Numbered from the stretch's first letter, positions 1-15,910 are shown. The stretch is DNA of 19,882 nt from a virus (IMGVR_UViG_2548876858_000016), one strand, 5' to 3'. Numbers and translations are program-made. The notes: generated by a model not told the origin, from the letters alone.

Positions 1-492
1 TGACAAACCGGTTTTTGCTTTCAGTTGGCGATATCCGGCATAGCCCTCACGAATGTTGCCCTTTTTGATTTGCTCAACTGTTTCGGCAACGTGGCTGACT
101 TTTTCTTCCACCTGAGTGATCCGTTTCTGCTGACGAACAGCTTCAAGAGCCATCGCGGCAACCATTTCGATTTCGCTCATTGGCTTACGGATCTGTTCTT
201 CCAGTTCGCGCCAGCGATCTACCAGGCGGGCTGTGAATTCGGGACAAAGCTGTGCGACGACAATGATGCTGTCGCGTTTGCCTCGTTCACCTTCGAAAAG
301 ATAATGCTTACTTTTTTGAGTTAAACCTAACCCATTGATATTTTCAGAAATCCCCATTGGGGGAAGCTGAATAATCCTTCGTTCAGCAAGGCGCTCAATG
401 GATTGTTTCACTTTGTCATGGCGGCTACCCACCAGCTCTGCGATCTCAACGCTGGTCATGGATGCTTTGCCGTTAAAAATTGCGGTGTTCAT
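1..492 (-). CDS. Phage regulatory protein Rha-family (N-terminal part; frame runs off the left window edge)
   Basis: Minus-strand frame open from ATG (490-492) to position 1; absent from the ORF track because no stop lies inside the window. My translation starts MNTAIFNGKASMTSVEIAELVGSRHDKVKQSIERL..., which matches the conserved N-terminal pattern of Rha-family regulators. GGAGA 6 nt upstream; the ATG overlaps the TGA of the upstream cro-like gene (ATGA). Confidence 0.65.
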   Translation of the reverse strand, partial: MNTAIFNGKASMTSVEIAELVGSRHDKVKQSIERLAERRIIQLPPMGISENINGLGLTQKSKHYLFEGERGKRDSIIVVAQLCPEFTARLVDRWRELEEQIRKPMSEIEMVAAMALEAVRQQKRITQVEEKVSHVAETVEQIKKGNIREGYAGYRQLKAKTGLS

Positions 493-752
493 TGTTGGTC
501 TCCTGTGGGCTTGTCATCCTCTGTGTGCGCTAAGCCTGAATGTGGAAAAAGCTCTGGTAGGTCTGGACGAAATTCATACGCTTGGATCTTTCCGTCGACA
601 GCTGCAACCAATAACGGCACAAATTCTGGTGAAATCTTGTTCTTGCAGTTCAACCAATCGCAGACTGTTGACTGGGCCTTTCCGCATCGCTTGGCTAAGG
701 CTTGCTGACTTCCAAGAATCTCAATAGCTTTCTCTATGGCTTTATGTTTCAT
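489..752 (-). CDS. Cro/YdaS-like small HTH DNA-binding regulator
   Basis: Track ORF 489..803(-); the internal Met (MKHKAIEKAIEILGSQQALAKRCGKAQSTVCDWL...) at 750-752 has an AGGAGA SD 7 nt upstream, so the shorter start is preferred. HTH-like segment; divergent from the repressor gene; translationally coupled to rha. Confidence 0.6.
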   Translation of the reverse strand: MKHKAIEKAIEILGSQQALAKRCGKAQSTVCDWLNCKNKISPEFVPLLVAAVDGKIQAYEFRPDLPELFPHSGLAHTEDDKPTGDQQ

Positions 753-774
753 AATCGCATCTCCTATTGAACGC

Positions 775-803
775 ATAATAACAACAGGAAAAGCGATATT
801 CAA
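775..803 (-). promoter_or_regulatory. Candidate early promoter for the cro-like/rha operon (minus strand TTGAAT-17-TATTAT)
   Basis: Minus-strand hexamers read from reverse complement: -35 at 798-803, -10 at 775-780, 17-bp spacer. Two related motifs TTnAACGnnTAA (767-778 and 799-810) overlap the hexamers, as operator half-sites would. Confidence 0.4.
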
Positions 804-821
804 CGTTAAACCTAGAACATT

Positions 822-837
822 TATCGGAAAGCCGATA
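822..837. promoter_or_regulatory. Palindrome TATCGGaaagCCGATA in the cro/cI intergenic region; candidate operator
   Basis: Perfect 6-bp inverted arms with 4-bp spacer, ~35 bp upstream of the repressor start. ATCGG/CCGAT elements recur around the pL-like promoter (1616-1650). Confidence 0.35.
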
Positions 838-871
838 GACTAGCCAAGATAGAGAGGGGAGGAAAATCGCA

Positions 872-1564
872 ATGACATTTTCAGAACGACTTGATTTAGC
901 TATGCGCAACGCAAAATTTACGCAAGGTAGGCTGGCCAAAGAAGTGGGTATGGCTCAGTCCAGTGTCAATCAACTACTTAACAAAGCCAACGGTTCCAGA
1001 AAAACAGTCGAAATAGCAAAAGTTTTGGGCGTTAACCCGGAATGGCTCGCATCGGGTGTTGGCCCAATGGAAATCGTGACCTCTGCAGACTCACACCAAA
1101 TACGTAACATTTCTGAGGATTGGGTTACTGATTCGTATGTCGTGGATGTTTTAGACATCAGATATAGTTGCGGACCTGGTAGTTATAACTCTGATTTTCC
1201 TGACATTGTCAGATCTATAGCGATAGAACCAGGATACGCATCAAGAGTTTTTGGCGGCAGGCCAGCATCAGCAATCAAAGCAATAAACGCCCACGGCGAC
1301 AGTATGAAAGGCACAATAGACCCTGAAGACTTGGTATTTGTAGATGTATCAGTTCGCGCATTTAATGGTGATGGTATATACGCCTTTACATACTCTGGAA
1401 CATCGCACATCAAAAGACTTCAAAAAATCAAAGATACTCTAACGGTGATATCTGACAACCCAGCTTACAAGGATTGGGCTATCGAACCGGAAGACTTTGA
1501 ACAACTTCACATTGACGGAAAAGTAATTGTCAGTTGGCCTATGACACTACACCGTTTTGCATAA
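872..1564 (+). CDS. CI-like phage repressor (N-terminal HTH_XRE domain + C-terminal S24 LexA-like autopeptidase domain)
   Basis: 230-aa ORF. N-terminal HTH (QGRLAKEVGMAQSSVNQLL), C-terminal GDSM serine motif and downstream Lys (HIKRLQK) typical of S24 peptidases. GGAGG SD ~9 nt upstream; divergent from cro-like gene. Confidence 0.85.
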   Translation: MTFSERLDLAMRNAKFTQGRLAKEVGMAQSSVNQLLNKANGSRKTVEIAKVLGVNPEWLASGVGPMEIVTSADSHQIRNISEDWVTDSYVVDVLDIRYSCGPGSYNSDFPDIVRSIAIEPGYASRVFGGRPASAIKAINAHGDSMKGTIDPEDLVFVDVSVRAFNGDGIYAFTYSGTSHIKRLQKIKDTLTVISDNPAYKDWAIEPEDFEQLHIDGKVIVSWPMTLHRFA

Positions 1565-1582
1565 GCAAAAATCATTTAACCC

Positions 1583-1608
1583 GCCCACTCTTAAGTGGGC
1601 TTTTTTTT
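1583..1608 (+). terminator. Rho-independent terminator after the repressor gene
   Basis: GCCCACTC / GTGGGC stem with short loop followed by T8 run (1601-1608). Confidence 0.55.
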
Positions 1609-1629
1609 GGAAAGAAATCGATAAACCGA

Positions 1630-1658
1630 TTGACAGGAAAAATCGGCAAACCTATTAT
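1630..1658 (+). promoter_or_regulatory. Near-consensus sigma70 promoter (TTGACA-17-TATTAT), pL-like
   Basis: TTGACA at 1630-1635, 17-bp spacer, TATTAT at 1653-1658; flanked by CCGAT/ATCGG dyad elements; drives the downstream plus-strand operon. Confidence 0.55.
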
Positions 1659-1707
1659 CATGGCATAGGTATCGAACTCACCAAAACAATTATAGAGGAT
1701 GAGAAAA

Positions 1708-2205
1708 ATGTCATCGTATATGGGGTTACCAACAAATCAGCACGATGCTCTTGAGAATATTCAGCTCTTAGTCGGGGCTGGTGCACTACTGTATAGCAGC
1801 AATAACCCTGAGTTAATTGAACTTGCCAGCTCCATCCTGGCTGTAACTCAAAAATATAGCCTCACAGCGTCGCGTTTATGCAAACAAAATTTAGCTATTA
1901 ATTCCCAGAATCGGATTAGCACCCAACGCGAAGCCTGCGGCTTAACAACAGCCGAACTCGCCAGGCTGCTCGATCTCGATGAAGAAATTATCATCCAGTG
2001 GGAGAGCGGAGAGTATGAACCAACTATCAGTATGCTTATCCCACTGGCAAATATTCTTGGCTGCGATCCGATGTGCCTGTTAACTGGTGAGGTTACTCCT
2101 CCGGAGCAACCAAAAAGTGAGGAGCAGCAACACCATGACGCATCTCAACAAGTTTGCCCCTTATCTCGCGAAGCTCTTCTGCGGAAGAACCAATACCAAT
2201 GGTGA
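1708..2205 (+). CDS. HTH_XRE-family DNA-binding protein
   Basis: Track ORF 1699..2205. AGAGG (1694-1698) abuts the first ATG, so the second ATG at 1708 (8-nt spacing) is preferred. Cro/C1-type HTH (LTTAELARLLDLDEEIIIQWESGEYEPTISMLIPLANILG) lies in the C-terminal half. Confidence 0.55.
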   Translation: MSSYMGLPTNQHDALENIQLLVGAGALLYSSNNPELIELASSILAVTQKYSLTASRLCKQNLAINSQNRISTQREACGLTTAELARLLDLDEEIIIQWESGEYEPTISMLIPLANILGCDPMCLLTGEVTPPEQPKSEEQQHHDASQQVCPLSREALLRKNQYQW

Positions 2206-2333
2206 CATAATCGCCGCTTCGCCCCTCAAGGTACATGCGAACATTTTTATCAATCATTGCGGAAACAGTCTCAATATGAAAACACTTCTGAGACTCGCTA
2301 TATAGCAGAACATATAAGTCAGCTGAGGAAGCC

Positions 2334-2690
2334 ATGAAAAAGTTCGAAAACATAACTGTTCTCCATGTTGATAACTTTGATTATACAAACCAGGAACTTC
2401 TCCCGGAGGTTGTAAAGGCAATAGATGTTGCCGATATAGTGATTAGAGGAAAGAGAATTGTCAAAAACAGGCTCGCATGCACTTCAGGAGCAATGACAGA
2501 AACAACCTCACAACAAGATGATTATGAAGGCATTTGTCTGGAGCCTGATTCATTTGCGGTAAATGTTTATCATTTATTGCATGCAACACAGGTATTACAT
2601 ATTTCCAGTAATCACGAAACGAAAACACTCGGCAGCGAAATTCTGAATTTTGCATGTGAGTATGCAAAAGCTGCTGCCGAAAATAATTAG
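2334..2690 (+). CDS. Hypothetical protein (118 aa)
   Basis: Track ORF; GAGGA SD 4 nt upstream; same orientation as the operon. Start overlaps a competing minus-strand ORF (see findings). Confidence 0.4.
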   Translation: MKKFENITVLHVDNFDYTNQELLPEVVKAIDVADIVIRGKRIVKNRLACTSGAMTETTSQQDDYEGICLEPDSFAVNVYHLLHATQVLHISSNHETKTLGSEILNFACEYAKAAAENN

Positions 2691-2890
2691 CACAATAAAT
2701 ATGCCCTGAACGTTTATTACGGTTTTATCGCCGGGGATTGTTACAACCTTTATTCACAGATGGAACTCAGTTATGACTTTCCTGAAAAATAAGGCATCGT
2801 ATAAAACTGCCTGCCTCATTGCACAACATGGAGATTCTTATCTTCATATAGCCAACCTGTATTTGCGCAAAGCATATGGGAGATAAATCA

Positions 2891-3079
2891 ATGGAAGAAA
2901 AAGAACAGAACATAACACATGAAAAAGTCAGAGTGTTGTTGACCATTGAAAATGGGAAGGTAATTCACTCAAAACATCTGTTGGATAATGAATTTGTTGG
3001 CTGCACGGATACATTTTTGTGGATGGTAAAACGAGCGGGTTACACTATTATTCCACCAGCAAAGGAGCAAACATTATGA
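2891..3079 (+). CDS. Hypothetical small protein (62 aa)
   Basis: Internal start of track ORF 2876..3079, with GGGAGA SD 7 nt upstream of the ATG at 2891. Stop overlaps the next start (ATGA at 3076-3079). Confidence 0.4.
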   Translation: MEEKEQNITHEKVRVLLTIENGKVIHSKHLLDNEFVGCTDTFLWMVKRAGYTIIPPAKEQTL

Positions 3080-3657
3080 ATCATTCAGAGTTCCGACCAG
3101 AAGTTACGCCACACGGTATAAAAATTGGCAATACAACCATAGATTATGCCGAGGCCGTACAGCGACTTAATGATGGTGAATATGATTATCCAAATTCACG
3201 CGGTTTAAGAATTCTTCAGTGCCTTGCTGAAGCGGATGATGCCGGATTGCTGGGAAAATTATCCGTCGATATGAAAGTTGCTCAATGGCGCTGGCTGTAT
3301 GTTACGACGTTTATAAATGAAGAGGAAGTCAGGAACGGCACCGTTGATATCCCTAACGATAATGGGACTACATATCGTGCAGTTATTTATAAGGGGAAAT
3401 ATGGTTGCATGAGTATATACCCTGAACCAATTCGCATTGCCCTGCAAAACCATGTCGAATGGGGATTCATTGAAAAATATGGCGAAGCTGAAGGCATGGG
3501 GCGAGTTCTGTTTCTCTATCAAAAAATGCTCATCGCAGATCCTGATAATGGCTTCATTGTCTCTGCTATGGGACGAGAAGGGCTTGAACTTCTTCTGGAT
3601 GAAATGATTCACGATCTGAATACTCATGGTATGCCAGAAACACCAGTGGCACATTAA
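3076..3657 (+). CDS. Hypothetical protein (193 aa)
   Basis: Internal start of track ORF 3019..3657 (track start is GTG without SD). ATG at 3076 has AAGGAG SD 8 nt upstream. Confidence 0.6.
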   Translation: MNHSEFRPEVTPHGIKIGNTTIDYAEAVQRLNDGEYDYPNSRGLRILQCLAEADDAGLLGKLSVDMKVAQWRWLYVTTFINEEEVRNGTVDIPNDNGTTYRAVIYKGKYGCMSIYPEPIRIALQNHVEWGFIEKYGEAEGMGRVLFLYQKMLIADPDNGFIVSAMGREGLELLLDEMIHDLNTHGMPETPVAH

Positions 3658-3659
3658 AT

Positions 3660-3938
3660 ATGTCAAATCAGAATAAAATTAATGTATTTCAGGTTGAGTC
3701 AAAACATAAAACACCTGTGATAAAACACGTTCGCCGCCATACACGCATCTATACGCCAGAAGAGTTTATGGCAATGCCAATGATAAAGAAACTCATACGA
3801 GACAATCCCGGTCTCGTTGCTATAGATAAAAACAGTGGAGAAATAATGTTATCACGTGAGATTGCCGAAATTTACTGTAGCGTGAATAACAGTAAAAAGT
3901 TGAAAAAGGCAATCAGAAAGATATCAGGAGGAGCATGA
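3660..3938 (+). CDS. Hypothetical basic protein (92 aa)
   Basis: Track ORF, 2 nt after the previous stop; its stop overlaps the next start (ATGA at 3935-3938). Confidence 0.5.
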   Translation: MSNQNKINVFQVESKHKTPVIKHVRRHTRIYTPEEFMAMPMIKKLIRDNPGLVAIDKNSGEIMLSREIAEIYCSVNNSKKLKKAIRKISGGA

Positions 3939-4123
3939 ATATTTATTTCAGAATAGTCATATCACTGGCAATTATCTCATGCATTTACGGATTACTCGTC
4001 CCGTTTCTGATATCAATGAAGGATACGGTAGCGGTAATTTCTGGCTTTGCACTGGCGTTTCTGACCCCGCCATGCATTTATGCCATTTATAAGGGGCTTT
4101 CTTTCACTAAGGATAAAAGATGA
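3935..4123 (+). CDS. Small membrane protein with two hydrophobic segments (62 aa)
   Basis: Track ORF; AGGAGG SD; segments IVISLAIISCIYGLLVPFLI and VAVISGFALAFLTPPCIYAI. Coupled on both sides by ATGA overlaps. Confidence 0.55.
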   Translation: MNIYFRIVISLAIISCIYGLLVPFLISMKDTVAVISGFALAFLTPPCIYAIYKGLSFTKDKR

Positions 4124-4947
4124 AAAAAATTATTTTTTCTTTAGCCATTGTTCTGCCTGCCATTGGCCTTGTCGGTTGTGATCGTGTTGAGCCTGGTAAT
4201 GTGGGCATCAAAGTCAACAAACTTGGCGACGACAAAGGCGTCGGTGAAGTGGTCGGTGTTGGTCGCTACTGGACAGGCTGGAACACTGAAGTTTATATCT
4301 TCCCGACCTTTAAGCAGATGAAGACCTACGATGATCCATTCAGTTTCCAGATGAGCGATGGAACAACCATTGGTTACCACATCGGAGTAGCCTACAAGGT
4401 TGATCCATCCAAAGTTACCACGGTGTTTCAAACCTACCGCAAAGGTGTGGATGACATTACCGACACCGACCTGCGCCAGAAGATAGCAGATGCACTAAAT
4501 CGGCTGGCCAGCAAAATGACCACTGATAAATTTATCGACGGTGGCAAATCTGAACTACTGGATGCAGCTCTAAAAGATATTCAGGCAGAAATGACGCCCA
4601 TCGGTATTCAGGTAATGAGCCTGTCTTATGTAGGTAAACCGGAGTACCCGCCAACCGTTATCGACAGCATTAACGCCAAAGTCACGGCAAACCAGAAAAC
4701 CCTGCAACGCGAGCAGGAAGTAAAACAGCGCGAAGCGGAAGCCAACATGTTGCGTGCGGAGGCTGCCGGACAGGCAGATGCAATTCGCACAAAAGCCCAG
4801 GCCGAAGCCGATGCTATTCGTTTACGCGGTGAAGCTCTGCGCCAGAACCCCGGAGTTATGGAGCTGGAAGCCATCAATAAATGGAACGGCACACTGCCGC
4901 AATACATGACCAGCGGAGCCAATACACCCTTTATCCAGGTTAAATAA
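4120..4947 (+). CDS. SPFH/band-7 (stomatin/HflK-C-like) domain lipoprotein
   Basis: 275-aa ORF; N-terminal signal peptide with lipobox LVGC (MKKIIFSLAIVLPAIGLVGC); central region resembles the SPFH fold; A/E/Q-rich coiled-coil tail (QREAEANMLRAEAAGQADAIRTKAQAEADAIRLRGEA); AAGGA SD 6 nt upstream. Confidence 0.75.
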   Translation: MKKIIFSLAIVLPAIGLVGCDRVEPGNVGIKVNKLGDDKGVGEVVGVGRYWTGWNTEVYIFPTFKQMKTYDDPFSFQMSDGTTIGYHIGVAYKVDPSKVTTVFQTYRKGVDDITDTDLRQKIADALNRLASKMTTDKFIDGGKSELLDAALKDIQAEMTPIGIQVMSLSYVGKPEYPPTVIDSINAKVTANQKTLQREQEVKQREAEANMLRAEAAGQADAIRTKAQAEADAIRLRGEALRQNPGVMELEAINKWNGTLPQYMTSGANTPFIQVK

Positions 4948-4954
4948 CTTATAT

Positions 4955-4973
4955 GCCCGGCAGGCCGCCGGGC
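4955..4973 (+). other. GC-rich hairpin (GCCCGGC-aggcc-GCCGGGC) between the SPFH gene and the next gene, without a U-tract
   Basis: Perfect 7-bp GC stem with 5-nt loop; no T-run follows, so not a classical intrinsic terminator; possible RNA-stability or processing element. Confidence 0.4.
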
Positions 4974-4987
4974 TAAGGGAAAAGCAG

Positions 4988-5347
4988 ATGAACACTCATA
5001 ATACTCAACCGCAAATAATGAACTATGACCCAAATCTGACGTTATGCGGACGCATGGCAAAACAAACCGTTCGATTAATTTTCGGGCTATGGGAATACCG
5101 CGAAACATTCGAAGTCACTGTCGGTGGCAACCTGACCGGACTCGATGTTATCAGTTGCGCTATTGAAAGCCTGTACGAAACGCTGCCTTATGAAGAAGTC
5201 GAGGATGAGCGCGATATCATCGCCACCATTAATATCGGCGGCGTGAAATGCAAGGATGAAAACTTGATCGGAGAGCTATGGCTTGCCGGAATGCTTATCT
5301 CAGCAGAAATTATCAGTATTGAACCCGCTACAAACATACGGCTCTGA
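4988..5347 (+). CDS. Hypothetical protein (119 aa)
   Basis: Track ORF; AAGGG SD 8 nt upstream. Confidence 0.5.
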   Translation: MNTHNTQPQIMNYDPNLTLCGRMAKQTVRLIFGLWEYRETFEVTVGGNLTGLDVISCAIESLYETLPYEEVEDERDIIATINIGGVKCKDENLIGELWLAGMLISAEIISIEPATNIRL

Positions 5348-5378
5348 AGTTCTCACAACTCAGGGAACAGGAGAAAAA

Positions 5379-5621
5379 ATGTTCGCTTTGATTAATCAAG
5401 GGCAACTGTATACCGACAGTGCCGGTTACCCGGTAAAAATTATTCGCTGCATAAATAATATCGTGTTGTACAGAAGAATGGATGGGCGAACACAGTCGGT
5501 AAAAATAAACGATTTTAATGAACTGTTTGAACGGATCGATCACCAGGAATACCGACAAATTCTGGCAGAAACAGAGCAGGAAGCTCATCTGAAAAAATTA
5601 CGAGCCATGAAAAGGAAGTAA
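5379..5621 (+). CDS. Hypothetical small protein (80 aa)
   Basis: Internal ATG of track ORF 5283..5621, with AGGAGA SD ~5 nt upstream. Confidence 0.5.
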   Translation: MFALINQGQLYTDSAGYPVKIIRCINNIVLYRRMDGRTQSVKINDFNELFERIDHQEYRQILAETEQEAHLKKLRAMKRK

Positions 5622-5624
5622 AGA

Positions 5625-5771
5625 ATGAATAAAGCATTTGAACGATGGGTCCACCAGCGTTACGGCAATCGCTATGACCTGACACGAGATGTTGACGGTT
5701 TCTACTGTCGTGAAATTGTGAAACGAATGTTTGAAGTGTGGTGCCACTGCCGTGGGCTGAGTGTTGTGTGA
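5625..5771 (+). CDS. Hypothetical small Cys-containing protein (48 aa), not in ORF track
   Basis: My translation: MNKAFERWVHQRYGNRYDLTRDVDGFYCREIVKRMFEVWCHCRGLSVV, stop TGA at 5769-5771. AGGAAG SD ~8 nt upstream; fills the gap between neighbouring genes in the same orientation. Confidence 0.35.
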   Translation: MNKAFERWVHQRYGNRYDLTRDVDGFYCREIVKRMFEVWCHCRGLSVV

Positions 5772-5779
5772 GGTAATGC

Positions 5780-6016
5780 ATGGGCAATGTGATTCAACTG
5801 GCTCCCAATGAATGGGTTTGTGAAAGCGTTCTAATCGCAATTACCGGGCTCAAACCAGGCACAATTCTTCGGGCCCGGAAAGAATGCTGGATGGTTGGAA
5901 GAGAGTATATTCACGTATCACCAGACGGTAATCCAAAGCCTTCCAGTGAATGTATGTATAACAGAAAAGCAATAGATGCCTGGGTTGCTTCAATGAAAAA
6001 CAAACAACCTGGGTGA
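5780..6016 (+). CDS. Excisionase-like (Xis-type) small DNA-binding protein
   Basis: 78-aa ORF immediately upstream of the integrase; EW...R...W...GREY pattern reminiscent of lambda-type Xis; GAGGT SD. Confidence 0.55.
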   Translation: MGNVIQLAPNEWVCESVLIAITGLKPGTILRARKECWMVGREYIHVSPDGNPKPSSECMYNRKAIDAWVASMKNKQPG

Positions 6017-6071
6017 TTTAATGCCATGAAGTATGTAAGCTCGTATCGCTCTTGGGTGTCTGGAGGTATCA

Positions 6072-7385
6072 ATGGATAAAGTCAAATATCCAACAGGCGT
6101 CGAAAACCACGGTGGCACATTACGCATCTGGTTTAATTTTAAAGGTAAACGTGTCAGGGAAAATCTTGGTGTCCCTGACACTGCCAAGAACAGGAAGATC
6201 GCCGGAGAGCTGCGGACATCTGTATGTTTTGCTATTCGTACAGGAAACTTTGATTACGCTGCGCAGTTCCCTGACTCTCCTAACCTCAAGGCTTTTGGGG
6301 TAAGTAAAAAAGAAATTACGGTGAAGGAACTTGAAGAAAAGTGGCTGGATCTGAAACGAATGGAAATCTCTGCAAATGCATTCAATCGCTATGAATCCGT
6401 TGCAAGAACGATGGTTCCGAAAATTGGAGGCAGCAGACTGGTGTCATCGGTAACTAAAGAGGAATTGCTGTATATCAGGAAAGATTTGCTGACCGGATAT
6501 CAGAATTCAACGAAAAACAAAGCAGCAGCAAAAGGACGGAGCGTCGTTACTGTAAATTATTACATGACGACAATCGCTGGAATGTTTCAGTTTGCTGCAG
6601 ATCACGGTTACCTAGAAGCAAATCCTTTCCAGGGAATTAAGCCTCTTAAAAGAGCCAGGGCAGAGCCAGATCCGCTAACTCGTGACGAATTTATTCGCCT
6701 GATAGATGCTTGCCGACATCAGCAGACGAAAAACCTGTGGTCATTGGCTGTGTACACAGGAATGCGTCACGGTGAACTGGTCTCCCTGGCCTGGGAAGAT
6801 ATCGATCTGAAAGCAGGAACTATTACTATCAGGCGCAATTATACGAAACTCGGTGAGTTCGCTCTACCTAAAACTGAAGCAAGTACAAACAGGGTTGTGC
6901 ATCTTATCCAGCCCGCTATCAGTGTCCTGAAAAATCAGGCTGAAATGACAAGACTGGGTAAGCAGCACCACATCAAGGTTCAACTACGTGAATATGGGCG
7001 TTCAGTGAATCATGAATGTACTTTCGTATTTAACCCCCAGGTGGTTAGAAAAAGCAAACAGGTCGGTTTTATCTACAAGGTAGATTCTATTGGCGACTCA
7101 TGGGAAACAGCCATTAAGCGTGCGGGCATCAGGCACCGGAAAGCATACCAGTCACGACACACTTATGCGTGCTGGTCATTATCTGCCGGAGCAAACCCAA
7201 GCTTCATTGCCAGCCAGATGGGCCATGCAAGTGCCCAGATGGTGTTCAATGTATACGGAGCATGGATGACTGACAGTAATGCAGAACAGATCGCAATGCT
7301 GAATCAGAAGCTGGCAGATTATGTCCCAATGATGTCCCATGGTCACCAAAGTGACACAAGAGACTTATTAAAATCAGTGGGTTAG
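6072..7385 (+). CDS. int: Tyrosine site-specific integrase (phage integrase family)
   Basis: 437-aa ORF; GGAGGT SD; C-terminal catalytic-domain pattern (TGMRHGEL, HxxR-type segment SRHTYA, catalytic Tyr in NVYGAWM); stop lies directly at the junction with the host-gene fragment. Confidence 0.9.
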   Translation: MDKVKYPTGVENHGGTLRIWFNFKGKRVRENLGVPDTAKNRKIAGELRTSVCFAIRTGNFDYAAQFPDSPNLKAFGVSKKEITVKELEEKWLDLKRMEISANAFNRYESVARTMVPKIGGSRLVSSVTKEELLYIRKDLLTGYQNSTKNKAAAKGRSVVTVNYYMTTIAGMFQFAADHGYLEANPFQGIKPLKRARAEPDPLTRDEFIRLIDACRHQQTKNLWSLAVYTGMRHGELVSLAWEDIDLKAGTITIRRNYTKLGEFALPKTEASTNRVVHLIQPAISVLKNQAEMTRLGKQHHIKVQLREYGRSVNHECTFVFNPQVVRKSKQVGFIYKVDSIGDSWETAIKRAGIRHRKAYQSRHTYACWSLSAGANPSFIASQMGHASAQMVFNVYGAWMTDSNAEQIAMLNQKLADYVPMMSHGHQSDTRDLLKSVG

Positions 7386-7399
7386 CCTTCAATACCCGT

Positions 7400-7813
7400 C
7401 ATGTTAACTGTGTGGAGGGTAACACCACGCTTTATGCCCTGCCGAAACCCGAGGTTGTCCTGCGCTGGCGTGAGCAGACCACAGATGACTTCCGCTTCTG
7501 TTTTAAGTTTCCGGCGACTATTTCGCATCAGGCAGCATTACGGCATTGCGATGATTTAGTGACTGAATTTTTGACCCGCATGTCACCGTTGGCTCCGCGC
7601 ATTGGACAATACTGGCTGCAACTGCCTGCCACATTCGGCCCACGGGAGCTGCCTGCGCTTTGGCATTTTCTCGACTCTCTTCCCGGCGAATTTAATTATG
7701 GTGTGGAAGTCCGCCATCCACAGTTTTTCGCCAAAGGGGAAGAGGAACAAACGATTAATCGCGGTTTACATCAGCGCGGCGTTAATCGGGTGATTTTCAT
7801 CAGACACGTTTAA
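7400..7813 (+). pseudogene. yecE: Internal fragment of a DUF72-family host gene (yecE-like), disrupted on both sides
   Basis: Frame encodes ~135 aa (VEGNTTLYALPKPEVVLRWREQTTDDFRFCFKFP...GVEVRHPQFF...) with no plausible start. Assignment to DUF72/yecE is from memory of the family. The fragment sits between the integrase and the serine recombinase. Confidence 0.5.
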
Positions 7814-7914
7814 ATACACCACCTAAAGCGATACAATCTAGGGGTTGGTAGATGATTCGGATGAAGCATCCTCATAACAAGCCCAACTGCTATTAGTTTT
7901 TATGGTGGTAAAGA

Positions 7915-9438
7915 ATGAAACGTGTAATCAGCTACATCAGATTCAGTTCTGAGCGACAAGCCAAAGGCGACTCACTACGCAGACAGTCTAAGATGGTTAA
8001 TGACTGGCTTAAGGCTCATCCTGAGTACTACCTTGACCAAGATTTATCCTTCCGTGATTTGGGGGTGAGTGGGTTCACTGGTAAGCACTTGAAAGGTGGC
8101 TTAGGTGACTTTTTAACCGCTATCGAGAAAGGGCTTGTTAAAGCTGGTGATACGCTCTTGATAGAATCTCTTGACCGTCTGTCACGTCAAGATGTAGACC
8201 AAGCAAGTGAGCTACTCAGAAACATTCTTCGCTCTGGTGTAGATGTGGTCACCTTGTCCGATGGTGAACATTACACACGAGAATCTCTTAAAGACCCGTT
8301 AGCTCTGATTAAAAGCATTCTGATAATGCAGCGGTCGCATGAGGAGAGTTTGAGGAAGTCTGAGCGTATACAAGCTGCATGGAACCGTAAAAAAGAACTC
8401 ATCTCTGAAGGTATCAAGATTTCTAAACGTTGTCCTGCATGGCTTAAGCTTAATGATGACCGTAAAAGCTTCTCTGTAATCCCTGAGAAAGTGGAGACTG
8501 TGAAGAGGTGCTTTCAGCTACGGTTAGAGGGTAAGTCTATCTGGGAGATTGTCAGGACTCTTAATGATGAAGGTCACCAGACGCTTAACCAATATAAAGC
8601 GGGTTCATTTGGTCAAACCTCAGTACAAGACCTTCTGAAAAATCGCTCTGTAATTGGTTACTTCACACCTAAAGGCTGTGAAGAGATAGCTGATTATTAT
8701 CCTGCAATTATAGATGAAACAACATTCTACAAAGTCCAGCAACTATCATATGCTCGTTACGGTAGAAAACCTGCTTCAGATAAGCCAATGGCTGTGAATC
8801 TTTTCAAAGGTGTTATCCGTTGCTCTGAATGTGGTCATGCTCTGATTATCACAGGCTTTAGCGATACAAGAAACGGGATTTATCGCTGTCCCCTTCGTAA
8901 TGAAAACCGTTGTAGTGCTAAAGGGCTGTCACGTAAGCAAACCGATGGTACATTGCTTACCCTGCTATCTCGTCTTGACCGATTTGATAGCGATACGACG
9001 AATACCATCGATACACTGAAGTTACACCGTGAACACATCTCAAGCAATATTGAGAAGCTGGTACAGCTATCACTTGAAATTGAAGATTTGTCAGCTATTA
9101 CCAGCAAGCTAAAACAACTAAAGAATGAGCTATCACAGGTTGATGCGGATATCGAGAAGGAGACACAACGCCTTAAATCTATTGATGTGGGGTGTTTGTC
9201 TGATTGTGACTTGACTACAAAGGCGGGAAGGATTGAAGCACAACTGATAATCAAAAGTGCTGTTAAAGAGGTCGTTTTAAATACTGCTAAACGTCGATGT
9301 AAAGTGACTTTTCACAACGGTAAGGTAATTGACCTACCAATAACAGAAAACCCCTCAGACAACGTTACAGAGGCTATACAGTCGCTTTCTGAAGTCACTG
9401 AGAGGGGTTTAATAGATGTTGATGAGGTTATCATATAG
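7915..9438 (+). CDS. Large serine recombinase (resolvase catalytic domain + recombinase domain + zinc-ribbon)
   Basis: 507-aa ORF; N-terminal YIRFSSERQ with catalytic Ser; Cys cluster CSECGH...YRCPLRNENRC; C-terminal coiled coil. Confidence 0.85.
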   Translation: MKRVISYIRFSSERQAKGDSLRRQSKMVNDWLKAHPEYYLDQDLSFRDLGVSGFTGKHLKGGLGDFLTAIEKGLVKAGDTLLIESLDRLSRQDVDQASELLRNILRSGVDVVTLSDGEHYTRESLKDPLALIKSILIMQRSHEESLRKSERIQAAWNRKKELISEGIKISKRCPAWLKLNDDRKSFSVIPEKVETVKRCFQLRLEGKSIWEIVRTLNDEGHQTLNQYKAGSFGQTSVQDLLKNRSVIGYFTPKGCEEIADYYPAIIDETTFYKVQQLSYARYGRKPASDKPMAVNLFKGVIRCSECGHALIITGFSDTRNGIYRCPLRNENRCSAKGLSRKQTDGTLLTLLSRLDRFDSDTTNTIDTLKLHREHISSNIEKLVQLSLEIEDLSAITSKLKQLKNELSQVDADIEKETQRLKSIDVGCLSDCDLTTKAGRIEAQLIIKSAVKEVVLNTAKRRCKVTFHNGKVIDLPITENPSDNVTEAIQSLSEVTERGLIDVDEVII

Positions 9439-9452
9439 TTGAGATTCTATCG

Positions 9453-10226
9453 TCAGTAGCGCTTATTCGGATTCACCGAAAACTTCTTCAAAGTACTACC
9501 TGTACCAGCATTATTAAGCACCTTTGAAGCTTGCTCATTAGCGGCATCTGAGAAGGTGCTTTTTCCGTTCTTAACTCTGACATTCCTACCACAATTGATA
9601 CGGGCTTGAAGTTGCTCATTAGAAAGTTCACTCGTAGAGCGATTATATAGCTCCTGACACATCAACATACCGTTACCTAAGCTTGTCGTAGTGTTCCCTG
9701 TATTCTTTTTGCTGGTAGCACCACCATCATTTGTAGTAGCTGTCTTTCCAGTAGCAGCCGAAATATCAGTTTGACCCACAATAGCTTTAAAGTTAATTTC
9801 CTGAAAAGTTAGCTGGATTCTTAGACCATTTGAAATACCAACATCTTTAGAGGCTTTAAAGCTTGTAATAATGGAGTCATCAATTTTAATACCATCTTTA
9901 CAGATGACCGAAATAATCTGCTTCTGGTCACGCCAGTTTTCAAGAGTGTCGATGAAGTTCTCCACCAGCTTATTATCTCTTGAGATAAGGATACTACCGG
10001 ATTCACCAACCACAACCACACCACTGATTGAAATAGTTCTTGGTGAACGCATTACATTATCTGTTACAGTCTGCCCTGATTGCATATTTTGAGTGGTCAC
10101 CATCATAGGGCTGTCATATTCCATCTGTTCAGTTGCTGATAAGGTTAAGAAATTATCTGGCTGTCCTTGTAGATGGAAGTAAACACCATCTTTACCAGTG
10201 TAACGAAGCTGACTAGTGTAAATCAT
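9453..10226 (-). CDS. Hypothetical protein (257 aa); possible tail component by position downstream of the tape-measure-like gene
   Basis: Track ORF; GGAGA SD 5 nt upstream of ATG; convergent with the recombinase gene. No domain recognised. Confidence 0.55.
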
Positions 10227-10309
10227 TAAATTCTCCTTTGATTTCAGAGACTTAGTGTATTTTAATCATTTTTAACCAAGCCTTTGATATATAAGTGTTT
10301 TCTCTGTTA

Positions 10310-10376
10310 AGCGTGAGCTACGTAAAAAATAATTTTTGGTGGGTATATCTGTTCAGAAGATTTCACGTAGCACACG
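10310..10376. promoter_or_regulatory. Copy A of a duplicated intergenic regulatory element (AAGCGTG..TACGTAAA..GTGGGTAT..CAGA..TTTC..ACGTAGCACAC)
   Basis: Shares ordered conserved blocks with 12501-12594; arms CGTGAGCTACGT / ACGTAGCACACG form an 11/12 inverted repeat; lies upstream of gene 9453-10226. Confidence 0.5.
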
Positions 10377-10389
10377 GATATATAAGAAA

Positions 10390-12480
10390 TCATTCTTCCT
10401 CTGGATAGCTTGAACTTAAGAGCATATCCTGCGTGAACTGGTCATTAGCTGATTGATTGAAAGTAAAGAAAGCTGGTTCATCCGGTCTAACAATTGCTTC
10501 ACCAGTGATATTAACTGACAAGGGCTTCTTAGCTTCTACTGTTAAAGCATCAACCTTGCGTGATAGCTCACTAATAGTCATTGCAAGTTGAGCATTACTA
10601 TTAACCATGTCACCCGTAATAGCTGGTGGAGTTGATTGTGTGTTATTTACGAAGTTATTCATCGGTTCTTGGGAGTTAGCAATTTTATCAGCTGCACTAC
10701 TAAACCAACCTTTAACATCGTCCATAGTGAACACTGGTTTAAGTCCAGACTCTTTAGCTAGCTCTGGTAATTTAGCTTGTGCTTCCATTCGTTCAGGTGT
10801 AGAAGCTAATCTTTCATAACCTGCATAGATAGCACTACCAGCTAATAGCATATTCATAGGGTTTAGTCTTGATGGTTTCCCATTCTTTCTATTCACGTTA
10901 TCCGCTGTGGTATCAGCGACCTGACCTAATCTTGTGATAGCAGTCATAAGCCCGTAAATACTTCTGGTTACACCAACAACTTTATTCACAGCAATAACAC
11001 CAGCCAAGACTTTTAAACTATTAATCAAGCCAGAACCTAAAGCATCAACTACTTTCTTTTGCTCATCGGTTAAACCACGATAAGCTAATGTCACCTCATC
11101 GAAGAATGCTCTTACCCTGTAGCTGATATCAGTCAATGAATCGACACCATGCGACATATCGCTCATCAAGCTACCAAGAGATTCACCAAGACTTTTACCA
11201 CTTCCACCAAGAGCGTTTAAAAGCGTTGTTAGGCTTCTTGTGAAATCTTGAAGACCATTTTCAGAACCTCTGAAGATACTATCAAGCGTGGTATTCCAAG
11301 AGTTTTTCAAGTTCCCTAGTTGTGCCTGTGTACTTTCTGAAATGGCTTTCCAGCCACCTTTAGCGGTGATTTGTCTATTCAGTTCCTGAGTGACCTTCTG
11401 AAGAGTATCGGCAGATTTTAAAGCCCCCTTCTTCATGGCATCAAATAATTCCTGTTCACTCTTTCCGGTTGCTTTAGCGAATACCTGAACCATACCAGGA
11501 ACAGCTTCAGCCAGTTGCCCCTTAAGCTCTTCAGCCATAATCTGACCCTTACCAGCCATCTGTGATAATGCTGTCAGTGCTCGCTTAATCTCTTCTTCAC
11601 TTCTCCCCATCAGACGAGCATAGCCAATCATATTTTTAAAAAGTTCTTCAGAACCTTGAATACCCATAGACTCTTTAGCTGAAGCACCAAAACCAGCAAA
11701 CTGTGATTGCAGTTCAGCGATATCTAAACCCGTTGTTTGAGCTAATGACTTTGTGAACTCTTTTACCTGACCTGCATCTTTATCAAATACGAAATCAATT
11801 GAACGCTCAGCACTTGCACGCTGTAAACCAATTTCCATAATCTTCTGATAACTGGCTAATACAGCCTGCATTGAGATAAATGCACCTGCTGTTTTAACTG
11901 CTGCTGAAGACAGGTTATCAAGACTATTAGCTGCTCTGTCAGCATTAATGCTGGTGGATGTATGACCTCTGGCTTTAGCAATTGCTTCTCTGACTGAAGC
12001 GTTTAACTGAGCTAACTTCTCATTGAATTTTGAAGAATCCATTGACCCGGCTTTAGCAGATAGCCCGTAAAACTGAGATTTGATGTATTTCTGCAAAATA
12101 GGGTCAAAGCCTTTTAGCTTAGACATATTAGCTGAGTAAGCCGCTGTGATTGCTCTGTTGCCGCTAATTAGTGGCTGTCTTGGCTGTCTAAGTGGCTTTA
12201 AAGTATCCTCAATTTCCGTTTTAATCTTAAACGCTCTAGTGTTTTTAAGACGCTGCTCAATCTTGTCAAAGGTCTTATTAAACTTCCTTTCAAGTTGCCC
12301 TAAAGAACTTGTCAGATTGCTGTCAAGTTGCTTGGTATCGACCTTAAACGCTCTATTCAAATTGCGTTCAATTCTTTGTGCTGACTGCAAAGCTGCCTTT
12401 TCAACTCTTTGCAGTCCCTTAATAACGTTTTCATTGAAGCCTAGCTCAACGATAAAACTATCAACTGTGAATTTGCTCAT
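10390..12480 (-). CDS. Phage tail tape-measure-like protein
   Basis: 696-aa ORF; central region (GSEELFKNMIGYARLMGRSEEEIKRALTALSQMAGKGQIMAEELKGQLAEAVPGMVQVFAKATGKSEQELFDAMKKG) matches the tape-measure core pattern; coiled-coil N-terminus; GAGGTG SD. Confidence 0.7.
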   Translation of the reverse strand: MSKFTVDSFIVELGFNENVIKGLQRVEKAALQSAQRIERNLNRAFKVDTKQLDSNLTSSLGQLERKFNKTFDKIEQRLKNTRAFKIKTEIEDTLKPLRQPRQPLISGNRAITAAYSANMSKLKGFDPILQKYIKSQFYGLSAKAGSMDSSKFNEKLAQLNASVREAIAKARGHTSTSINADRAANSLDNLSSAAVKTAGAFISMQAVLASYQKIMEIGLQRASAERSIDFVFDKDAGQVKEFTKSLAQTTGLDIAELQSQFAGFGASAKESMGIQGSEELFKNMIGYARLMGRSEEEIKRALTALSQMAGKGQIMAEELKGQLAEAVPGMVQVFAKATGKSEQELFDAMKKGALKSADTLQKVTQELNRQITAKGGWKAISESTQAQLGNLKNSWNTTLDSIFRGSENGLQDFTRSLTTLLNALGGSGKSLGESLGSLMSDMSHGVDSLTDISYRVRAFFDEVTLAYRGLTDEQKKVVDALGSGLINSLKVLAGVIAVNKVVGVTRSIYGLMTAITRLGQVADTTADNVNRKNGKPSRLNPMNMLLAGSAIYAGYERLASTPERMEAQAKLPELAKESGLKPVFTMDDVKGWFSSAADKIANSQEPMNNFVNNTQSTPPAITGDMVNSNAQLAMTISELSRKVDALTVEAKKPLSVNITGEAIVRPDEPAFFTFNQSANDQFTQDMLLSSSYPEEE

Positions 12481-12500
12481 TCATATTTTTCACCTCTTTA

Positions 12501-12594
12501 AGCGTGTTGTACGTAAATTCTATTTTTCAGTGTGGGTATTAGCTTTACAGATTTCATGAGGATAATTCTTATCCGAATCATCACGTAGCACACA
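12501..12594. promoter_or_regulatory. Copy B of the duplicated intergenic regulatory element, upstream of the tape-measure-like gene
   Basis: Same conserved blocks as 10310-10376 with a ~27-bp insertion; contains CACGTAGCACACAGGAT (12582-12598). Confidence 0.5.
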
Positions 12595-12622
12595 GGATTC
12601 GATAGAAGACTATCTCATATAC

Positions 12623-12663
12623 AAAAAAGGGAGAGCTACCGATGTCACTCGATAATCTCTCCC
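12623..12663 (-). terminator. Candidate intrinsic terminator on the minus strand (GGGAGAG / CTCTCCC stem, 21-nt loop, U6)
   Basis: 7-bp GC-rich stem at 12629-12635 / 12657-12663; on the minus-strand transcript it is followed by UUUUUU (plus-strand A6 at 12623-12628). Loop is long for a terminator. Confidence 0.4.
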
Positions 12664-12688
12664 GTTGATTTTTACCCAACCAATCTTT

Positions 12689-12892: not shown

Positions 12893-12916
12893 TCACCACC
12901 TCCTTTTAATTCATAG

Positions 12917-13657: not shown

Positions 13658-13692
13658 TATTATTTTTCCTCTTCTAAGATAATTTATGTTTC

Positions 13693-15257: not shown

Positions 15258-15260
15258 TAT

Positions 15261-15824: not shown

Positions 15825-15910
15825 TCATAAGCTAGTCCTTATAATTGTTAATTCTCTGTTAACTTATATAGACAATACTAGCATTTTCAAAGACTAATGT
15901 CAAGCATTTT

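What the first reader, a model, noticed from the sequence alone, without database searches (positions are those of the whole stretch)
2891..5771. Operon of eight short coupled unknown genes where lambdoid phages normally carry recombination and early-left genes
Seen: between the pL-like promoter (1630-1658) and xis/int lie ORFs at 2891, 3076, 3660, 3935, 4120, 4988, 5379 and 5625, all plus strand, mostly overlapping or separated by under 40 bp, with plausible SD sequences. None carries a motif I recognise as Exo/Bet/Gam, Kil or cIII-like. Inference: this is an accessory cargo operon expressed from the early-left promoter; several products are small enough to be regulators or inhibitors (anti-defence or host takeover). 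The 193-aa product (3076-3657) and the 119-aa product (4988-5347) have no recognisable domain.
Basis: partly seen in the sequence, partly recalled or inferred. Interest (0 to 1): 0.55.

Follow-up and report, generated by a model that had tools for sequence, protein, structure and literature searches.

The report
phiP27-type prophage early-left accessory operon
The eight small genes are real and conserved, but they are the ordinary, already-sequenced "early-left" accessory region of a phiP27-type E. coli prophage; its most interesting part is a two-gene membrane cassette (a tiny membrane protein plus an SPFH lipoprotein) that many unrelated phages carry and whose job nobody has tested.

Summary
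Observation confirmed. All eight ATG-started plus-strand ORFs exist at the stated coordinates. Spacings are -4, +2, -4, -4, +40, +31 and +3 nt, and seven have Shine-Dalgarno sequences. NCBI's annotation of a 98.5%-identical prophage (E. coli MS8345) calls the same eight genes. All eight show purifying selection (dN/dS 0.01-0.25).

The region is the int-proximal arm of a phiP27-family prophage in yecE, a lineage with no annotated Red-type recombination genes. It is not one system but a mosaic of modules with different distributions:
- g1+g2: phrog_340 plus a 193-aa protein with a confident fold and no PDB or BFVD relative.
- g3: sporadic.
- g4+g5: a 62-aa two-TM protein translationally coupled to a 275-aa SPFH/Band-7 lipoprotein with Asp at +2, so probably inner-membrane and periplasmic.
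- g6: DUF5406.
- g7: DUF4222, the family of the EHEC regulator RgdR.
- g8: 48 aa.

The g4+g5 pair recurs in P2-like, P1-like, SSU5-like and Klebsiella temperate phages and in virulent N4-like and rV5-like phages. This argues for a role in lytic growth. No match to known defence systems; function untested. Ordinary overall, with modest interest in the SPFH cassette.

The parts
1630..1658 (+). pL-like sigma-70 promoter (TTGACA-17-TATTAT), downstream of the cI-like gene (872-1564) and its terminator (1583-1600). It is the presumed start of the early-left transcript.
   Evidence: 11/12 match, the best site in 600-7900; the 9-mer ACAGGAAAA occurs only twice in the window, inside this promoter's spacer (1633-1641) and in the cI/cro intergenic region (784-792), which suggests shared operator half-sites.
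2891..3079 (+). g1: 62-aa soluble protein (pI 6.3), phrog_340, unknown function. Its stop overlaps the g2 start by 4 nt.
   Evidence: phrog_340, 1.3e-22; dN/dS 0.08-0.25.
3076..3657 (+). g2: 193-aa acidic (pI 4.9) cytoplasmic alpha/beta protein, phrog_1515 (phiP27 L06). No Pfam family. The predicted fold is confident and has no solved or viral-predicted relative.
3660..3938 (+). g3: 92-aa basic (pI 10.1) protein with no family. Variable: found only in MS8345 and phage ASU11, where it is unannotated.
   Evidence: no PHROG at E<0.09; no hit in phiP27, SE11, APEC, STEC313; dN/dS 0.18 in frame against 1.25 and 1.47 out of frame.
3935..4123 (+). g4: 62-aa two-TM membrane protein (phrog_1130) with a basic C-terminal tail. 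It overlaps the g5 start by 4 nt and is the partner gene of the SPFH cassette.
   Evidence: 1.5e-23; Kyte-Doolittle hydrophobic windows; conserved Y-x-L-x-P-x-x-[IV]-S ... V-x-x-G ... P motif in P88, P1-like, SSU5-like, MY01, Pastis, Klebsiella prophage and KpS8.
4120..4947 (+). g5: 275-aa SPFH/Band-7 lipoprotein (phrog_200, phiP27 L05). It has a signal peptide with lipobox LVGC and Asp at +2, an SPFH domain at 22-208, then an Ala/Glu/Arg-rich coiled-coil helix and a KWNG-LP tail.
   Evidence: PF01145, 1.1e-30, 107.5 bits; HflC/HflK equivalogs far below cut-off; prohibitin-2, HflC, QmcA, HflK at E 6e-7 to 3e-5; dN/dS 0.011-0.014.
4955..4973 (+). GC-rich hairpin (GCCCGGC-AGGCC-GCCGGGC) just after the g5 stop, with no U tract. 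Probably not a terminator; it marks the 3' edge of the higher-GC SPFH gene.
   Evidence: -17.1 kcal/mol, z -1.3, not significant; not called as a terminator; g5 GC 0.49 against 0.37-0.43 for g1-g4.
4988..5347 (+). g6: 119-aa acidic DUF5406 protein (phrog_3409, phiP27 L04). Small alpha+beta fold with no solved relative. Widespread in early regions of proteobacterial and Treponema mobile elements.
5379..5621 (+). g7: 80-aa basic (pI 9.5) DUF4222 protein (phrog_285). It belongs to the family that contains the EHEC prophage regulator RgdR, but it is not an RgdR orthologue.
   Evidence: PF13973, 8.6e-16; BLASTP E 0.18; RGD aligns with QGQ; dN/dS 0.09-0.17.
5625..5771 (+). g8: 48-aa basic protein with three Cys and two His (phrog_3871), immediately upstream of xis.
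   Evidence: 4.1e-35; dN/dS 0.10-0.14.
5780..7385 (+). xis (5780-6016, DUF1233) and tyrosine integrase (6072-7385). They end the same co-oriented gene string and abut the yecE (DUF72) attachment site.

Best explanation
Window 2891-5771 is the int-proximal half of the early-left (pL-type) transcription unit of a phiP27-family prophage integrated in E. coli yecE.

Shown:
- The eight ORFs are real, tightly coupled protein genes under purifying selection.
- Their order (g1-g2-[g3]-g4-g5-g6-g7-g8-xis-int) is kept across the lineage.
- They form separable modules with different distributions.
- None is a recombination or replication protein or a known defence protein.

Inferred: after the cI-like (LexA-family/S24) repressor is lost, transcription from the promoter at 1630-1658 runs through the HTH gene, the 118-aa gene and these eight genes into xis/int, because no intrinsic terminator intervenes. 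Ribosomes pass between ORFs by overlap or re-initiation. The products would then be made early in lytic development.

The most interpretable unit is g4+g5.
- Shown: a two-TM 62-aa protein is translationally coupled to an SPFH lipoprotein whose lipobox Cys is followed by Asp. This same pair occurs in at least eight unrelated phage backbones, including strictly virulent N4-like and rV5-like phages.
- Inferred from the E. coli +2 Asp rule and from solved HflK/C, prohibitin and QmcA cages: g5 is retained on the periplasmic face of the inner membrane and oligomerises through its coiled-coil region into an HflK/C-like cage. With g4 it fences off a membrane patch.
- My preferred guess, with low confidence: this protects or re-organises the inner membrane during infection, for example by blocking genome entry of superinfecting phage or by controlling a membrane protease or membrane integrity.

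g7 is most likely a small nucleic-acid-binding regulator like its family member RgdR. g2 and g6 are soluble acidic proteins of unknown, probably host-protein-binding, function.
For: - Identity and context: 98.5% identical to the MS8345 prophage and 91% to phiP27. The same gene order holds in prophages whose g2 is only 55-71% identical.
- Coding status: dN/dS is well below 1 for all eight genes.
- Coupling and Shine-Dalgarno sites.
- Transcription: strong promoter at 1630-1658 after the cI terminator, and no convincing plus-strand terminator before int. The 9-mer ACAGGAAAA is shared only with the cI/cro intergenic region.
- Domain assignments: SPFH, DUF5406, DUF4222 and the PHROG families.
- Cassette mobility: P88 gp11+gp12, a P1-like phage, SSU5-like phage-plasmids, Klebsiella prophages, and the Schitoviridae MY01 and Pastis all have a phrog_1130-type small ORF overlapping or abutting the SPFH start. 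In the Vequintavirinae phage KpS8 the small ORF lies two genes upstream.
- ASU11 lacks exactly g4+g5.
- SPFH lipoprotein relatives occur in 355 of 50,697 phage records (E<=1e-20), many of them virulent.
- The lipobox followed by Asp at +2 is conserved.
- The coiled-coil region aligns to prohibitin-2, HflC, QmcA and HflK.
- RgdR precedent for DUF4222: PMC10877973 and PMC3378721.
Against: - No expression data. The 200-nt gap at 2691-2890 could hide a weak promoter, so lysogenic expression is not excluded.
- The operator inference rests on one shared 9-mer.
- The +2 Asp rule is an E. coli rule, and SSU5-like copies have lost the Cys altogether.
- No experiment links any phage SPFH protein to exclusion, FtsH or membrane protection. 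PADLOC has no model that matches.
- g7 is very distant from RgdR (E 0.18) and lacks the RGD motif.
- g1, g2, g3, g6 and g8 have no functional lead at all.
Confidence: 0.7

Rival explanations
1. Lysogenic-conversion or defence morons. Some of the genes, above all g4-g5, would be expressed from the resident prophage and benefit the host, either by excluding other phages at the membrane or as a surface or virulence lipoprotein. The precedent is the prophage SPFH protein PM0222 of Pasteurella multocida, which stimulates TLR1/2.
For: - g5 has a higher GC content than its neighbours (0.49 against 0.37-0.43) and is followed by a GC-rich hairpin.
- The cassette moves between backbones like a moron and is carried by 571 of 5426 complete E. 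coli genomes.
- PM0222 is a prophage-encoded HflK/C-like virulence factor (PMC9872710).
- PHROGs files phrog_1130 under 'moron, auxiliary metabolic gene and host takeover'.
Against: - No promoter was called upstream of g4 or g5; they are translationally coupled to g3 and g4 inside a long co-directional string.
- The hairpin has no U tract and is not significant.
- The same cassette sits among early or middle genes of strictly virulent Schitoviridae and Vequintavirinae, which have no lysogen to convert.
- No PADLOC hit.
- Homology of g5 to PM0222 was not tested.
Confidence: 0.2
2. A functional analogue of lambda CIII. The periplasmic SPFH lipoprotein would mimic or compete with host HflK/HflC, change FtsH activity, and so tune the stability of phage regulators (CII-like protein, Xis) and the lysis-lysogeny or excision decision. 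It lies where lambda keeps cIII.
For: - The best named relatives are HflC and HflK, the FtsH modulators.
- The predicted periplasmic topology matches HflK/C (plus the +2 Asp rule).
- The gene is in the early-left position next to xis.
- The idea has been raised for Pseudomonas phage SPFH proteins (PMC8540360).
Against: - HflC and HflK equivalog scores are 24.6 and 22.7 bits against cut-offs of 134 and 159; prohibitin and QmcA score equally well.
- The cassette is present in P2-like and P1-like phages and in strictly virulent N4-like and rV5-like phages. These have no CII/FtsH-type decision, or no lysogeny at all.
- PMC8540360 itself notes that obligately lytic phages carry such genes.
Confidence: 0.12
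3. Highly diverged recombination or replication genes, that is, remote homologues of Exo/Bet/Gam, Erf/RecT, NinB or replication factors that occupy the usual lambdoid slot.
For: Position only. In SSU5-like phage-plasmids the SPFH pair lies next to RecA-like and 5'-3' exonuclease genes.
Against: - No Pfam, NCBIfam or PHROG recombination hit for any of the eight proteins.
- phiP27 has no annotated Red/Erf/RecT genes anywhere.
Confidence: 0.03

Closest known systems
Early-left (int-proximal) region of Stx2e phage phiP27, ORFs L03-L07 (NC_003356), and the equivalent yecE prophages of E. coli MS8345, SE11 and STEC313
   Same: Same genes in the same order at 91-98.5% nucleotide identity, with the same xis/int and the same yecE attachment site.
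   Different: The window and MS8345 carry the extra gene g3, which phiP27, SE11, APEC and STEC313 lack. The immunity region differs: the cI-like gene has no hit in phiP27 or SE11. The old phiP27 annotation misses g4 and g8 and uses longer starts.
HflK/HflC-FtsH, QmcA and prohibitin SPFH cages, and the NfeD-SPFH two-gene operons (YbbJ-QmcA, YqiJ-YqiK)
   Same: g5 has a bona fide SPFH domain followed by a coiled-coil helix that aligns to these proteins. Like NfeD-SPFH pairs, a small membrane-protein gene sits immediately upstream and is translationally coupled. The predicted periplasmic orientation is that of HflK/C.
   Different: g5 is anchored by a lipid rather than a TM helix and is a single paralogue rather than a K/C pair. 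It scores far below the HflK/HflC equivalog cut-offs. g4 has no NfeD domain. A genuine NfeD plus flotillin-like pair does occur at the equivalent place in a Citrobacter element, which shows that the two kinds are distinct.
RgdR (ECs1581), the DUF4222 prophage regulator of LEE/T3SS and motility in EHEC O157:H7
   Same: g7 matches the same Pfam family above threshold. It is also small, basic and prophage-borne, and lies in an early region.
   Different: Pairwise similarity is negligible (E 0.18). The functionally important RGD motif is QGQ in g7, and g7 is 80 aa against 99 aa. No regulatory activity can be transferred.
Lambda early-left (pL) operon: N, cIII, kil, gam, bet, exo, ea genes, xis, int
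   Same: Same position and orientation relative to the repressor gene and xis/int. Both are strings of small, partly dispensable genes presumably under repressor control.
   Different: None of the lambda gene families is present. There is no N-like antiterminator; a DicA-like HTH gene follows the promoter instead.

Membership tests
SPFH / Band 7 superfamily (PF01145) | Match to the SPFH domain model above Pfam's gathering score | tested here: met
   g5 scores 107.5 bits against a cut-off of 23.6, E 1.1e-30, residues 22-208 covering model positions 2-176 of 176.
HflK / HflC (FtsH modulators) | Score above the NCBIfam equivalog cut-offs (TIGR01932, TIGR01933, PRK11029, PRK10930) | tested here: not met
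   24.6 and 22.7 bits against cut-offs of 134.4 and 159.4; 18.4 and 17.6 against 427 and 660. PDB HflK and HflC match only at E 1e-5 to 1e-3 over the SPFH2 and coiled-coil part.
HflK / HflC (FtsH modulators) | Physical association with FtsH and an effect on its substrates | not testable with these tools
   Needs co-purification and CII or sigma-32 turnover assays.
NfeD-SPFH operon | Upstream partner carries an NfeD domain (PF01957) | tested here: not met
   g4 has no Pfam hit at E<=0.1. The Citrobacter L003 188-aa partner hits NfeD only below the Pfam cut-off (23.9 bits against 29.1), upstream of a 514-aa SPFH protein.
NfeD-SPFH operon | A small membrane-protein gene immediately upstream of, and coupled to, the SPFH gene | tested here: met
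   4-nt overlap in the window. The same holds in P88, P1-like, MY01, Pastis and Klebsiella prophages, with a 3-nt gap in SSU5-like elements.
Bacterial lipoprotein retained in the inner membrane | Signal peptide plus lipobox [LVI][ASTVI][GAS]C, with Asp at +2 | tested here: met
   MKKIIFSLAIVLPAIGLVGC|DRVE; the same G-C-D-R-V-E-P-G is present in P88, the P1-like phage, MY01, Pastis and the Klebsiella prophage. Actual localisation was not tested.
DUF5406 (PF17400) | Match above the gathering score | tested here: met
   g6 scores 78.8 bits against 25, E 4.9e-22, full-length.
DUF4222 / RgdR family (PF13973) | Match above the gathering score | tested here: met
   g7 scores 57.7 bits against 27, E 8.6e-16.
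DUF4222 / RgdR family (PF13973) | RGD motif at the position shown to matter for T3SS activation (PMC3378721) | tested here: not met
   RGD of ECs1581 aligns with Q-G-Q of g7.
Lambda Red / early-left proteins (Exo, Bet, Gam, Kil, CIII) | Sequence or fold similarity to any of these families | tested here: not met
   No Pfam, NCBIfam or PHROG hit. Models of g2 and g6 have no such structural neighbour.
Known anti-phage defence systems (PADLOC-DB v2) | HMM match of any component | tested here: not met
   Zero families at E<=0.1 for all eight proteins.
Classical moron (autonomous cassette expressed in the lysogen) | Own promoter upstream and intrinsic terminator downstream | tested here: not met
   No promoter-like site before g4 or g5. 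The hairpin at 4955-4973 lacks a U tract and has z -1.3. The consensus scans are crude, so this is weak negative evidence.

The most novel reading that the evidence does not exclude
The g4+g5 pair is one member of a widespread and so far uncharacterised two-component phage membrane system. It consists of a roughly 62-aa two-TM protein and a periplasm-facing, lipid-anchored SPFH cage protein. Temperate and virulent phages of Enterobacterales share the pair, and relatives of the SPFH lipoprotein reach Pseudomonas, Burkholderia, Caulobacter and crAss-like phages. It could act during infection to seal or partition the inner membrane, for example as a new kind of superinfection exclusion or envelope-integrity device. 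Separately, g2 (193 aa, pLDDT 94) may represent a fold with no solved or viral-predicted relative.
Probability: 0.3. Interest if true: 0.6.

Novelty: new member of a known kind. Interest (0 to 1): 0.3.

Why it matters
As an operon it matters little. It is one more copy of a prophage accessory region sequenced in 2002, and every gene already sits in a PHROG or a Pfam DUF.

What could matter is the g4-g5 cassette:
- It is present in about one in ten complete E. coli genomes (571 of 5426), on chromosomes and on P1-like or SSU5-like plasmid prophages.
- Its SPFH protein has relatives in 355 phage records across many phage groups.
- It is under very strong purifying selection (dN/dS about 0.01).
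- It is shared by temperate and strictly virulent phages.
- It has no tested function.

SPFH cages (HflK/C, prohibitin, flotillin) are currently being solved, and what they do is still debated. A small, phage-borne, periplasmic, lipid-anchored version with a 62-aa partner would be a tractable model. It could also reveal a membrane-level step of phage infection or exclusion.

The DUF4222 gene is also a reminder that small prophage regulators of this family can rewire host virulence genes, as RgdR does in EHEC.

Tried and rejected
- Solved-structure sequence searches for g2, g6 and g7 gave nothing meaningful.
- Foldseek against BFVD for g2: best E 0.086.
- The afdb50 library was unavailable.
- PADLOC gave no hit for any of the eight proteins.
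- I tested whether DUF5406 is functionally linked to SPFH. In 11 distant loci DUF5406 never sits beside an SPFH gene; the nearest case is Citrobacter, where a flotillin-type pair lies two genes downstream. I dropped the linkage. Only g2-DUF5406 (Photorhabdus) and DUF5406-DUF4222 (Citrobacter) adjacencies recur.
- I tested whether g1 is a stand-alone C-terminal domain of the Rha-type antirepressor that precedes the g2 homologue in Photorhabdus. There is no similarity. The weak phrog_4792 hit (E 0.004) is therefore not relied on.
- BLASTP of g4 against P88 gp11 found no alignment. Homology was instead established through the shared phrog_1130 match and a conserved motif.
- Rfam scan of 1-8000 gave only a sub-threshold Trp-leader match at the cI terminator.
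- The hairpin after g5 is not significant.
- Literature searches for SPFH with prophage, defence, superinfection or band 7 found only annotations and speculation, with no functional study of a phage SPFH protein apart from PM0222 in Pasteurella.
- Homology of g5 to PM0222 could not be checked because no sequence was at hand.

Full report
**1. What is in the sequence**

The window's first 7.8 kb is the left arm of a prophage. It is 98.5% identical to one in E. coli MS8345 and about 91% identical to the Stx2e phage phiP27.

The layout on the plus strand is:
- a LexA-family/S24 cI-like repressor gene (872-1564);
- a clean terminator (1583-1600);
- the strongest sigma-70-like site of the region (1630-1658, TTGACA-17-TATTAT);
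- a DicA-like HTH gene (1699-2205);
- a 118-aa gene (2334-2690, phrog_5451);
- the eight ORFs of the finding;
- xis (5780-6016, DUF1233) and a tyrosine integrase (6072-7385);
- the 5' part of yecE (DUF72).

Spacings are -4, +2, -4, -4, +40, +31 and +3 nt. Seven have a Shine-Dalgarno sequence, and the eighth (g3) starts 2 nt after the preceding stop. PGAP's annotation of MS8345 calls exactly the same eight CDSs.

**2. Are they genes?**

Yes. Comparisons with phiP27, SE11, an APEC strain, STEC313 and phage ASU11 (nucleotide identity 89-96% for the eight genes) give these pairwise dN/dS values:

| Gene | dN/dS |
|---|---|
| g1 | 0.08-0.25 |
| g2 | 0.14-0.17 |
| g3 | 0.18 (1.25 and 1.47 in the two wrong frames) |
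| g4 | 0.13-0.18 |
| g5 | 0.011-0.014 (4 non-synonymous against 64-75 synonymous changes) |
| g6 | 0.18-0.21 |
| g7 | 0.09-0.17 |
| g8 | 0.10-0.14 |

**3. What the proteins are**

Pfam, PHROGs, NCBIfam and PADLOC scans give the following.
- g1: phrog_340.
- g2: phrog_1515, with no Pfam family.
- g3: no family.
- g4: phrog_1130, annotated 'membrane protein', with two hydrophobic helices and a basic tail.
- g5: SPFH/Band 7 (PF01145, 1e-30) and phrog_200, annotated 'lipoprotein'.
- g6: DUF5406 (PF17400).
- g7: DUF4222 (PF13973).
- g8: phrog_3871.

Nothing resembles Exo, Bet, Gam, Kil or CIII, and nothing matches a PADLOC defence model.

An exhaustive HMMER search finds only 86 cluster representatives (at 50% identity) of g2 among 1.84 billion proteins. 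Their alignment shows an invariant C-terminal His and a few near-invariant polar and aromatic residues.

**4. It is a mosaic, not one system**

- The order g1-g2-(g3)-g4-g5-g6-g7-g8-xis-int-yecE is kept even in prophages whose g2 is only 55-71% identical.
- The modules come and go. g3 is missing from phiP27, SE11, APEC and STEC313. It is present, unannotated, in ASU11.
- ASU11 lacks exactly g4+g5.
- Among 5426 complete E. coli genomes, g1-g2 matches 81, all on chromosomes. g4-g5 matches 571, with 417 chromosomal and 241 plasmid places. g6-g8 matches 653.
- In 11 distant genomes (Citrobacter, Photorhabdus, Mixta, Pseudohongiella, Ectothiorhodospiraceae, Mesorhizobium, a Rhizobiales isolate, an unclassified gammaproteobacterial MAG and three Treponema MAGs) DUF5406 mostly sits among phage- or island-type early genes such as primase, Rha and integrase. 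In the Mesorhizobium locus and on the short MAG contigs no such neighbours were seen. It is preceded by a g2 homologue once (Photorhabdus) and followed by DUF4222 once (Citrobacter).

**5. The SPFH cassette**

g4 and g5 overlap by 4 nt.

g5 begins MKKIIFSLAIVLPAIGLVGC|DRVEPG. That is a signal peptide, a lipobox, and Asp at +2. From established knowledge of E. coli lipoprotein sorting, Asp at +2 is the inner-membrane retention signal. The SPFH domain should therefore face the periplasm from the inner membrane, which is the topology of HflK/C.

The SPFH domain (22-208) is followed by a long Ala/Glu/Arg-rich helix and a KWNG-LP tail. A profile of ten family members hits prohibitin-2, HflC, QmcA and HflK at E 6e-7 to 3e-5, mainly over this coiled-coil region. 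All of these are cage-forming SPFH proteins. However, g5 is far below the HflK/HflC equivalog thresholds, so it is a separate subfamily.

The same pair, a phrog_1130-type two-TM ORF of 61-78 aa overlapping or abutting the start of an SPFH lipoprotein, is found in:
- P2-like phage P88 (gp11+gp12);
- a P1-like phage, where the small ORF is unannotated;
- SSU5-like phage-plasmids of about 110 kb;
- Klebsiella prophages, also downstream of an S24 repressor;
- two strictly virulent N4-like phages, Klebsiella phage MY01 and Erwinia phage Pastis (Schitoviridae);
- the rV5-like Klebsiella phage KpS8, with one gene intervening

.

The SPFH partner is 75-92% identical across the P88, P1-like, SSU5-like, Klebsiella-prophage and N4-like copies, and 49% in KpS8. 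The small proteins are only about 25% identical, but they keep a Y-x-L-x-P-x-x-[IV]-S ... V-x-x-G ... P motif.

More distant SPFH lipoproteins occur in 355 of 50,697 phage records (E<=1e-20). They include Pseudomonas, Burkholderia, Caulobacter and crAss-like phages. Some have a different membrane partner (Karma) and some have none (DL54, Pistou).

**6. Mechanism**

Shown:
- a co-directional, coupled gene string with one strong upstream promoter and no convincing plus-strand terminator before int;
- an operator-like 9-mer shared only between that promoter and the cI/cro intergenic region.

Inferred: repressor-controlled early transcription reads through to xis/int.

For g4-g5, the presence in virulent phages argues for a role during lytic growth. 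It argues against a role only in lysogenic conversion or in a CII/FtsH-type lysogeny decision. I therefore favour an HflK/C-like periplasmic cage that protects or partitions the inner membrane during infection, with superinfection exclusion at DNA entry or control of membrane integrity or proteolysis as candidates. Nothing here or in the searchable literature tests this. Papers only annotate such genes or speculate about HflK/C-like roles, and they note that lytic phages also carry them (PMC8540360, PMC3220722, PMC5834331). The one functional study is of a prophage HflK/C-like protein acting as a Pasteurella virulence factor (PMC9872710).

g7 belongs to the family of RgdR. RgdR is a small basic prophage protein that binds DNA non-specifically, activates LEE1 and lowers motility in EHEC (PMC3378721, PMC10877973). 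But g7 is very distant from it (E 0.18) and has QGQ in place of RGD. Only 'small regulator' can be proposed.

**7. Comparison with what is known, and verdict**

The region is the phiP27-family equivalent of the lambda early-left operon by position only. phiP27 has a Mu-like contractile tail, DnaB/DnaC-type replication genes, a Q-like antiterminator and no annotated Red/Erf/RecT genes anywhere. The 'missing' recombination genes are therefore a lineage trait.

Every gene is already deposited and placed in a PHROG or Pfam DUF, so this is a new member of a known kind. Overall interest is low to moderate (0.3).

The part worth an experiment is the g4-g5 cassette. The confident orphan fold of g2 comes second.

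Noticed in passing
window 7412-19882: yecE (DUF72) is cut after about 400 bp (7412-7813). From 7915 a second, unrelated prophage begins: large serine recombinase (7915-9438, +), Dit-like tail protein (9453-10226, -), tape measure (10390-12480, -) and Dam methylase fused to HTH_7 (16764-17432, -). Two prophages therefore sit side by side in yecE. The same junction is present in pig strain ZH177 (96.4%).
   Followed up: partly
window 2334-2690: A ninth co-oriented gene (118 aa, phrog_5451, phiP27 L08) lies upstream of the finding and probably belongs to the same transcript. PGAP in MS8345 calls only its last 65 codons. Relatives differ by a 1-nt indel.
   Followed up: partly
window 784-792 and 1633-1641: ACAGGAAAA occurs only twice in 19.9 kb, once in the cI/cro intergenic region and once in the spacer of the pL-like promoter. 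Short ATCG/CGAT inverted repeats lie nearby at 823-836 and 1618-1631. These are candidate repressor half-sites.
   Followed up: partly
window 3076-3657 (alignment A2): In 48 g2-family proteins the very last residue is an invariant His, preceded by a conserved P-x-x-P. D37, R72-W73, Y105, R120, E128 and Y148 are also nearly invariant. This is unexplained.
   Followed up: no
L021-L023 (SSU5-like phage-plasmids), 2501-3331: These SPFH copies (76% identical to g5) have Tyr in place of the lipobox Cys (IIGY-DRVEPG). They cannot be lipidated and may be anchored by an uncleaved signal peptide. They lie next to RecA-like and 5'-3' exonuclease genes.
   Followed up: no
L003 (Citrobacter braakii) 7001-9890: DUF5406 and DUF4222 genes are followed by an NfeD-like 188-aa membrane protein and a 514-aa flotillin-like SPFH protein. 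This is a different SPFH pair at the equivalent place in another element.
   Followed up: partly
window 2093-2353, minus strand: An 86-aa antisense ORF lies between the HTH gene and the 118-aa gene. phiP27 annotates a minus-strand L09 in the same interval, whereas PGAP does not. Its coding status was not tested.
   Followed up: no
window 1699-2205: The DicA-like HTH gene after the pL-like promoter is itself mosaic. Only nucleotides 218-390 or 218-507 align with relatives at about 96%, and the N-terminal third is different. ASU11 labels its counterpart 'putative CII repressor'.
   Followed up: no
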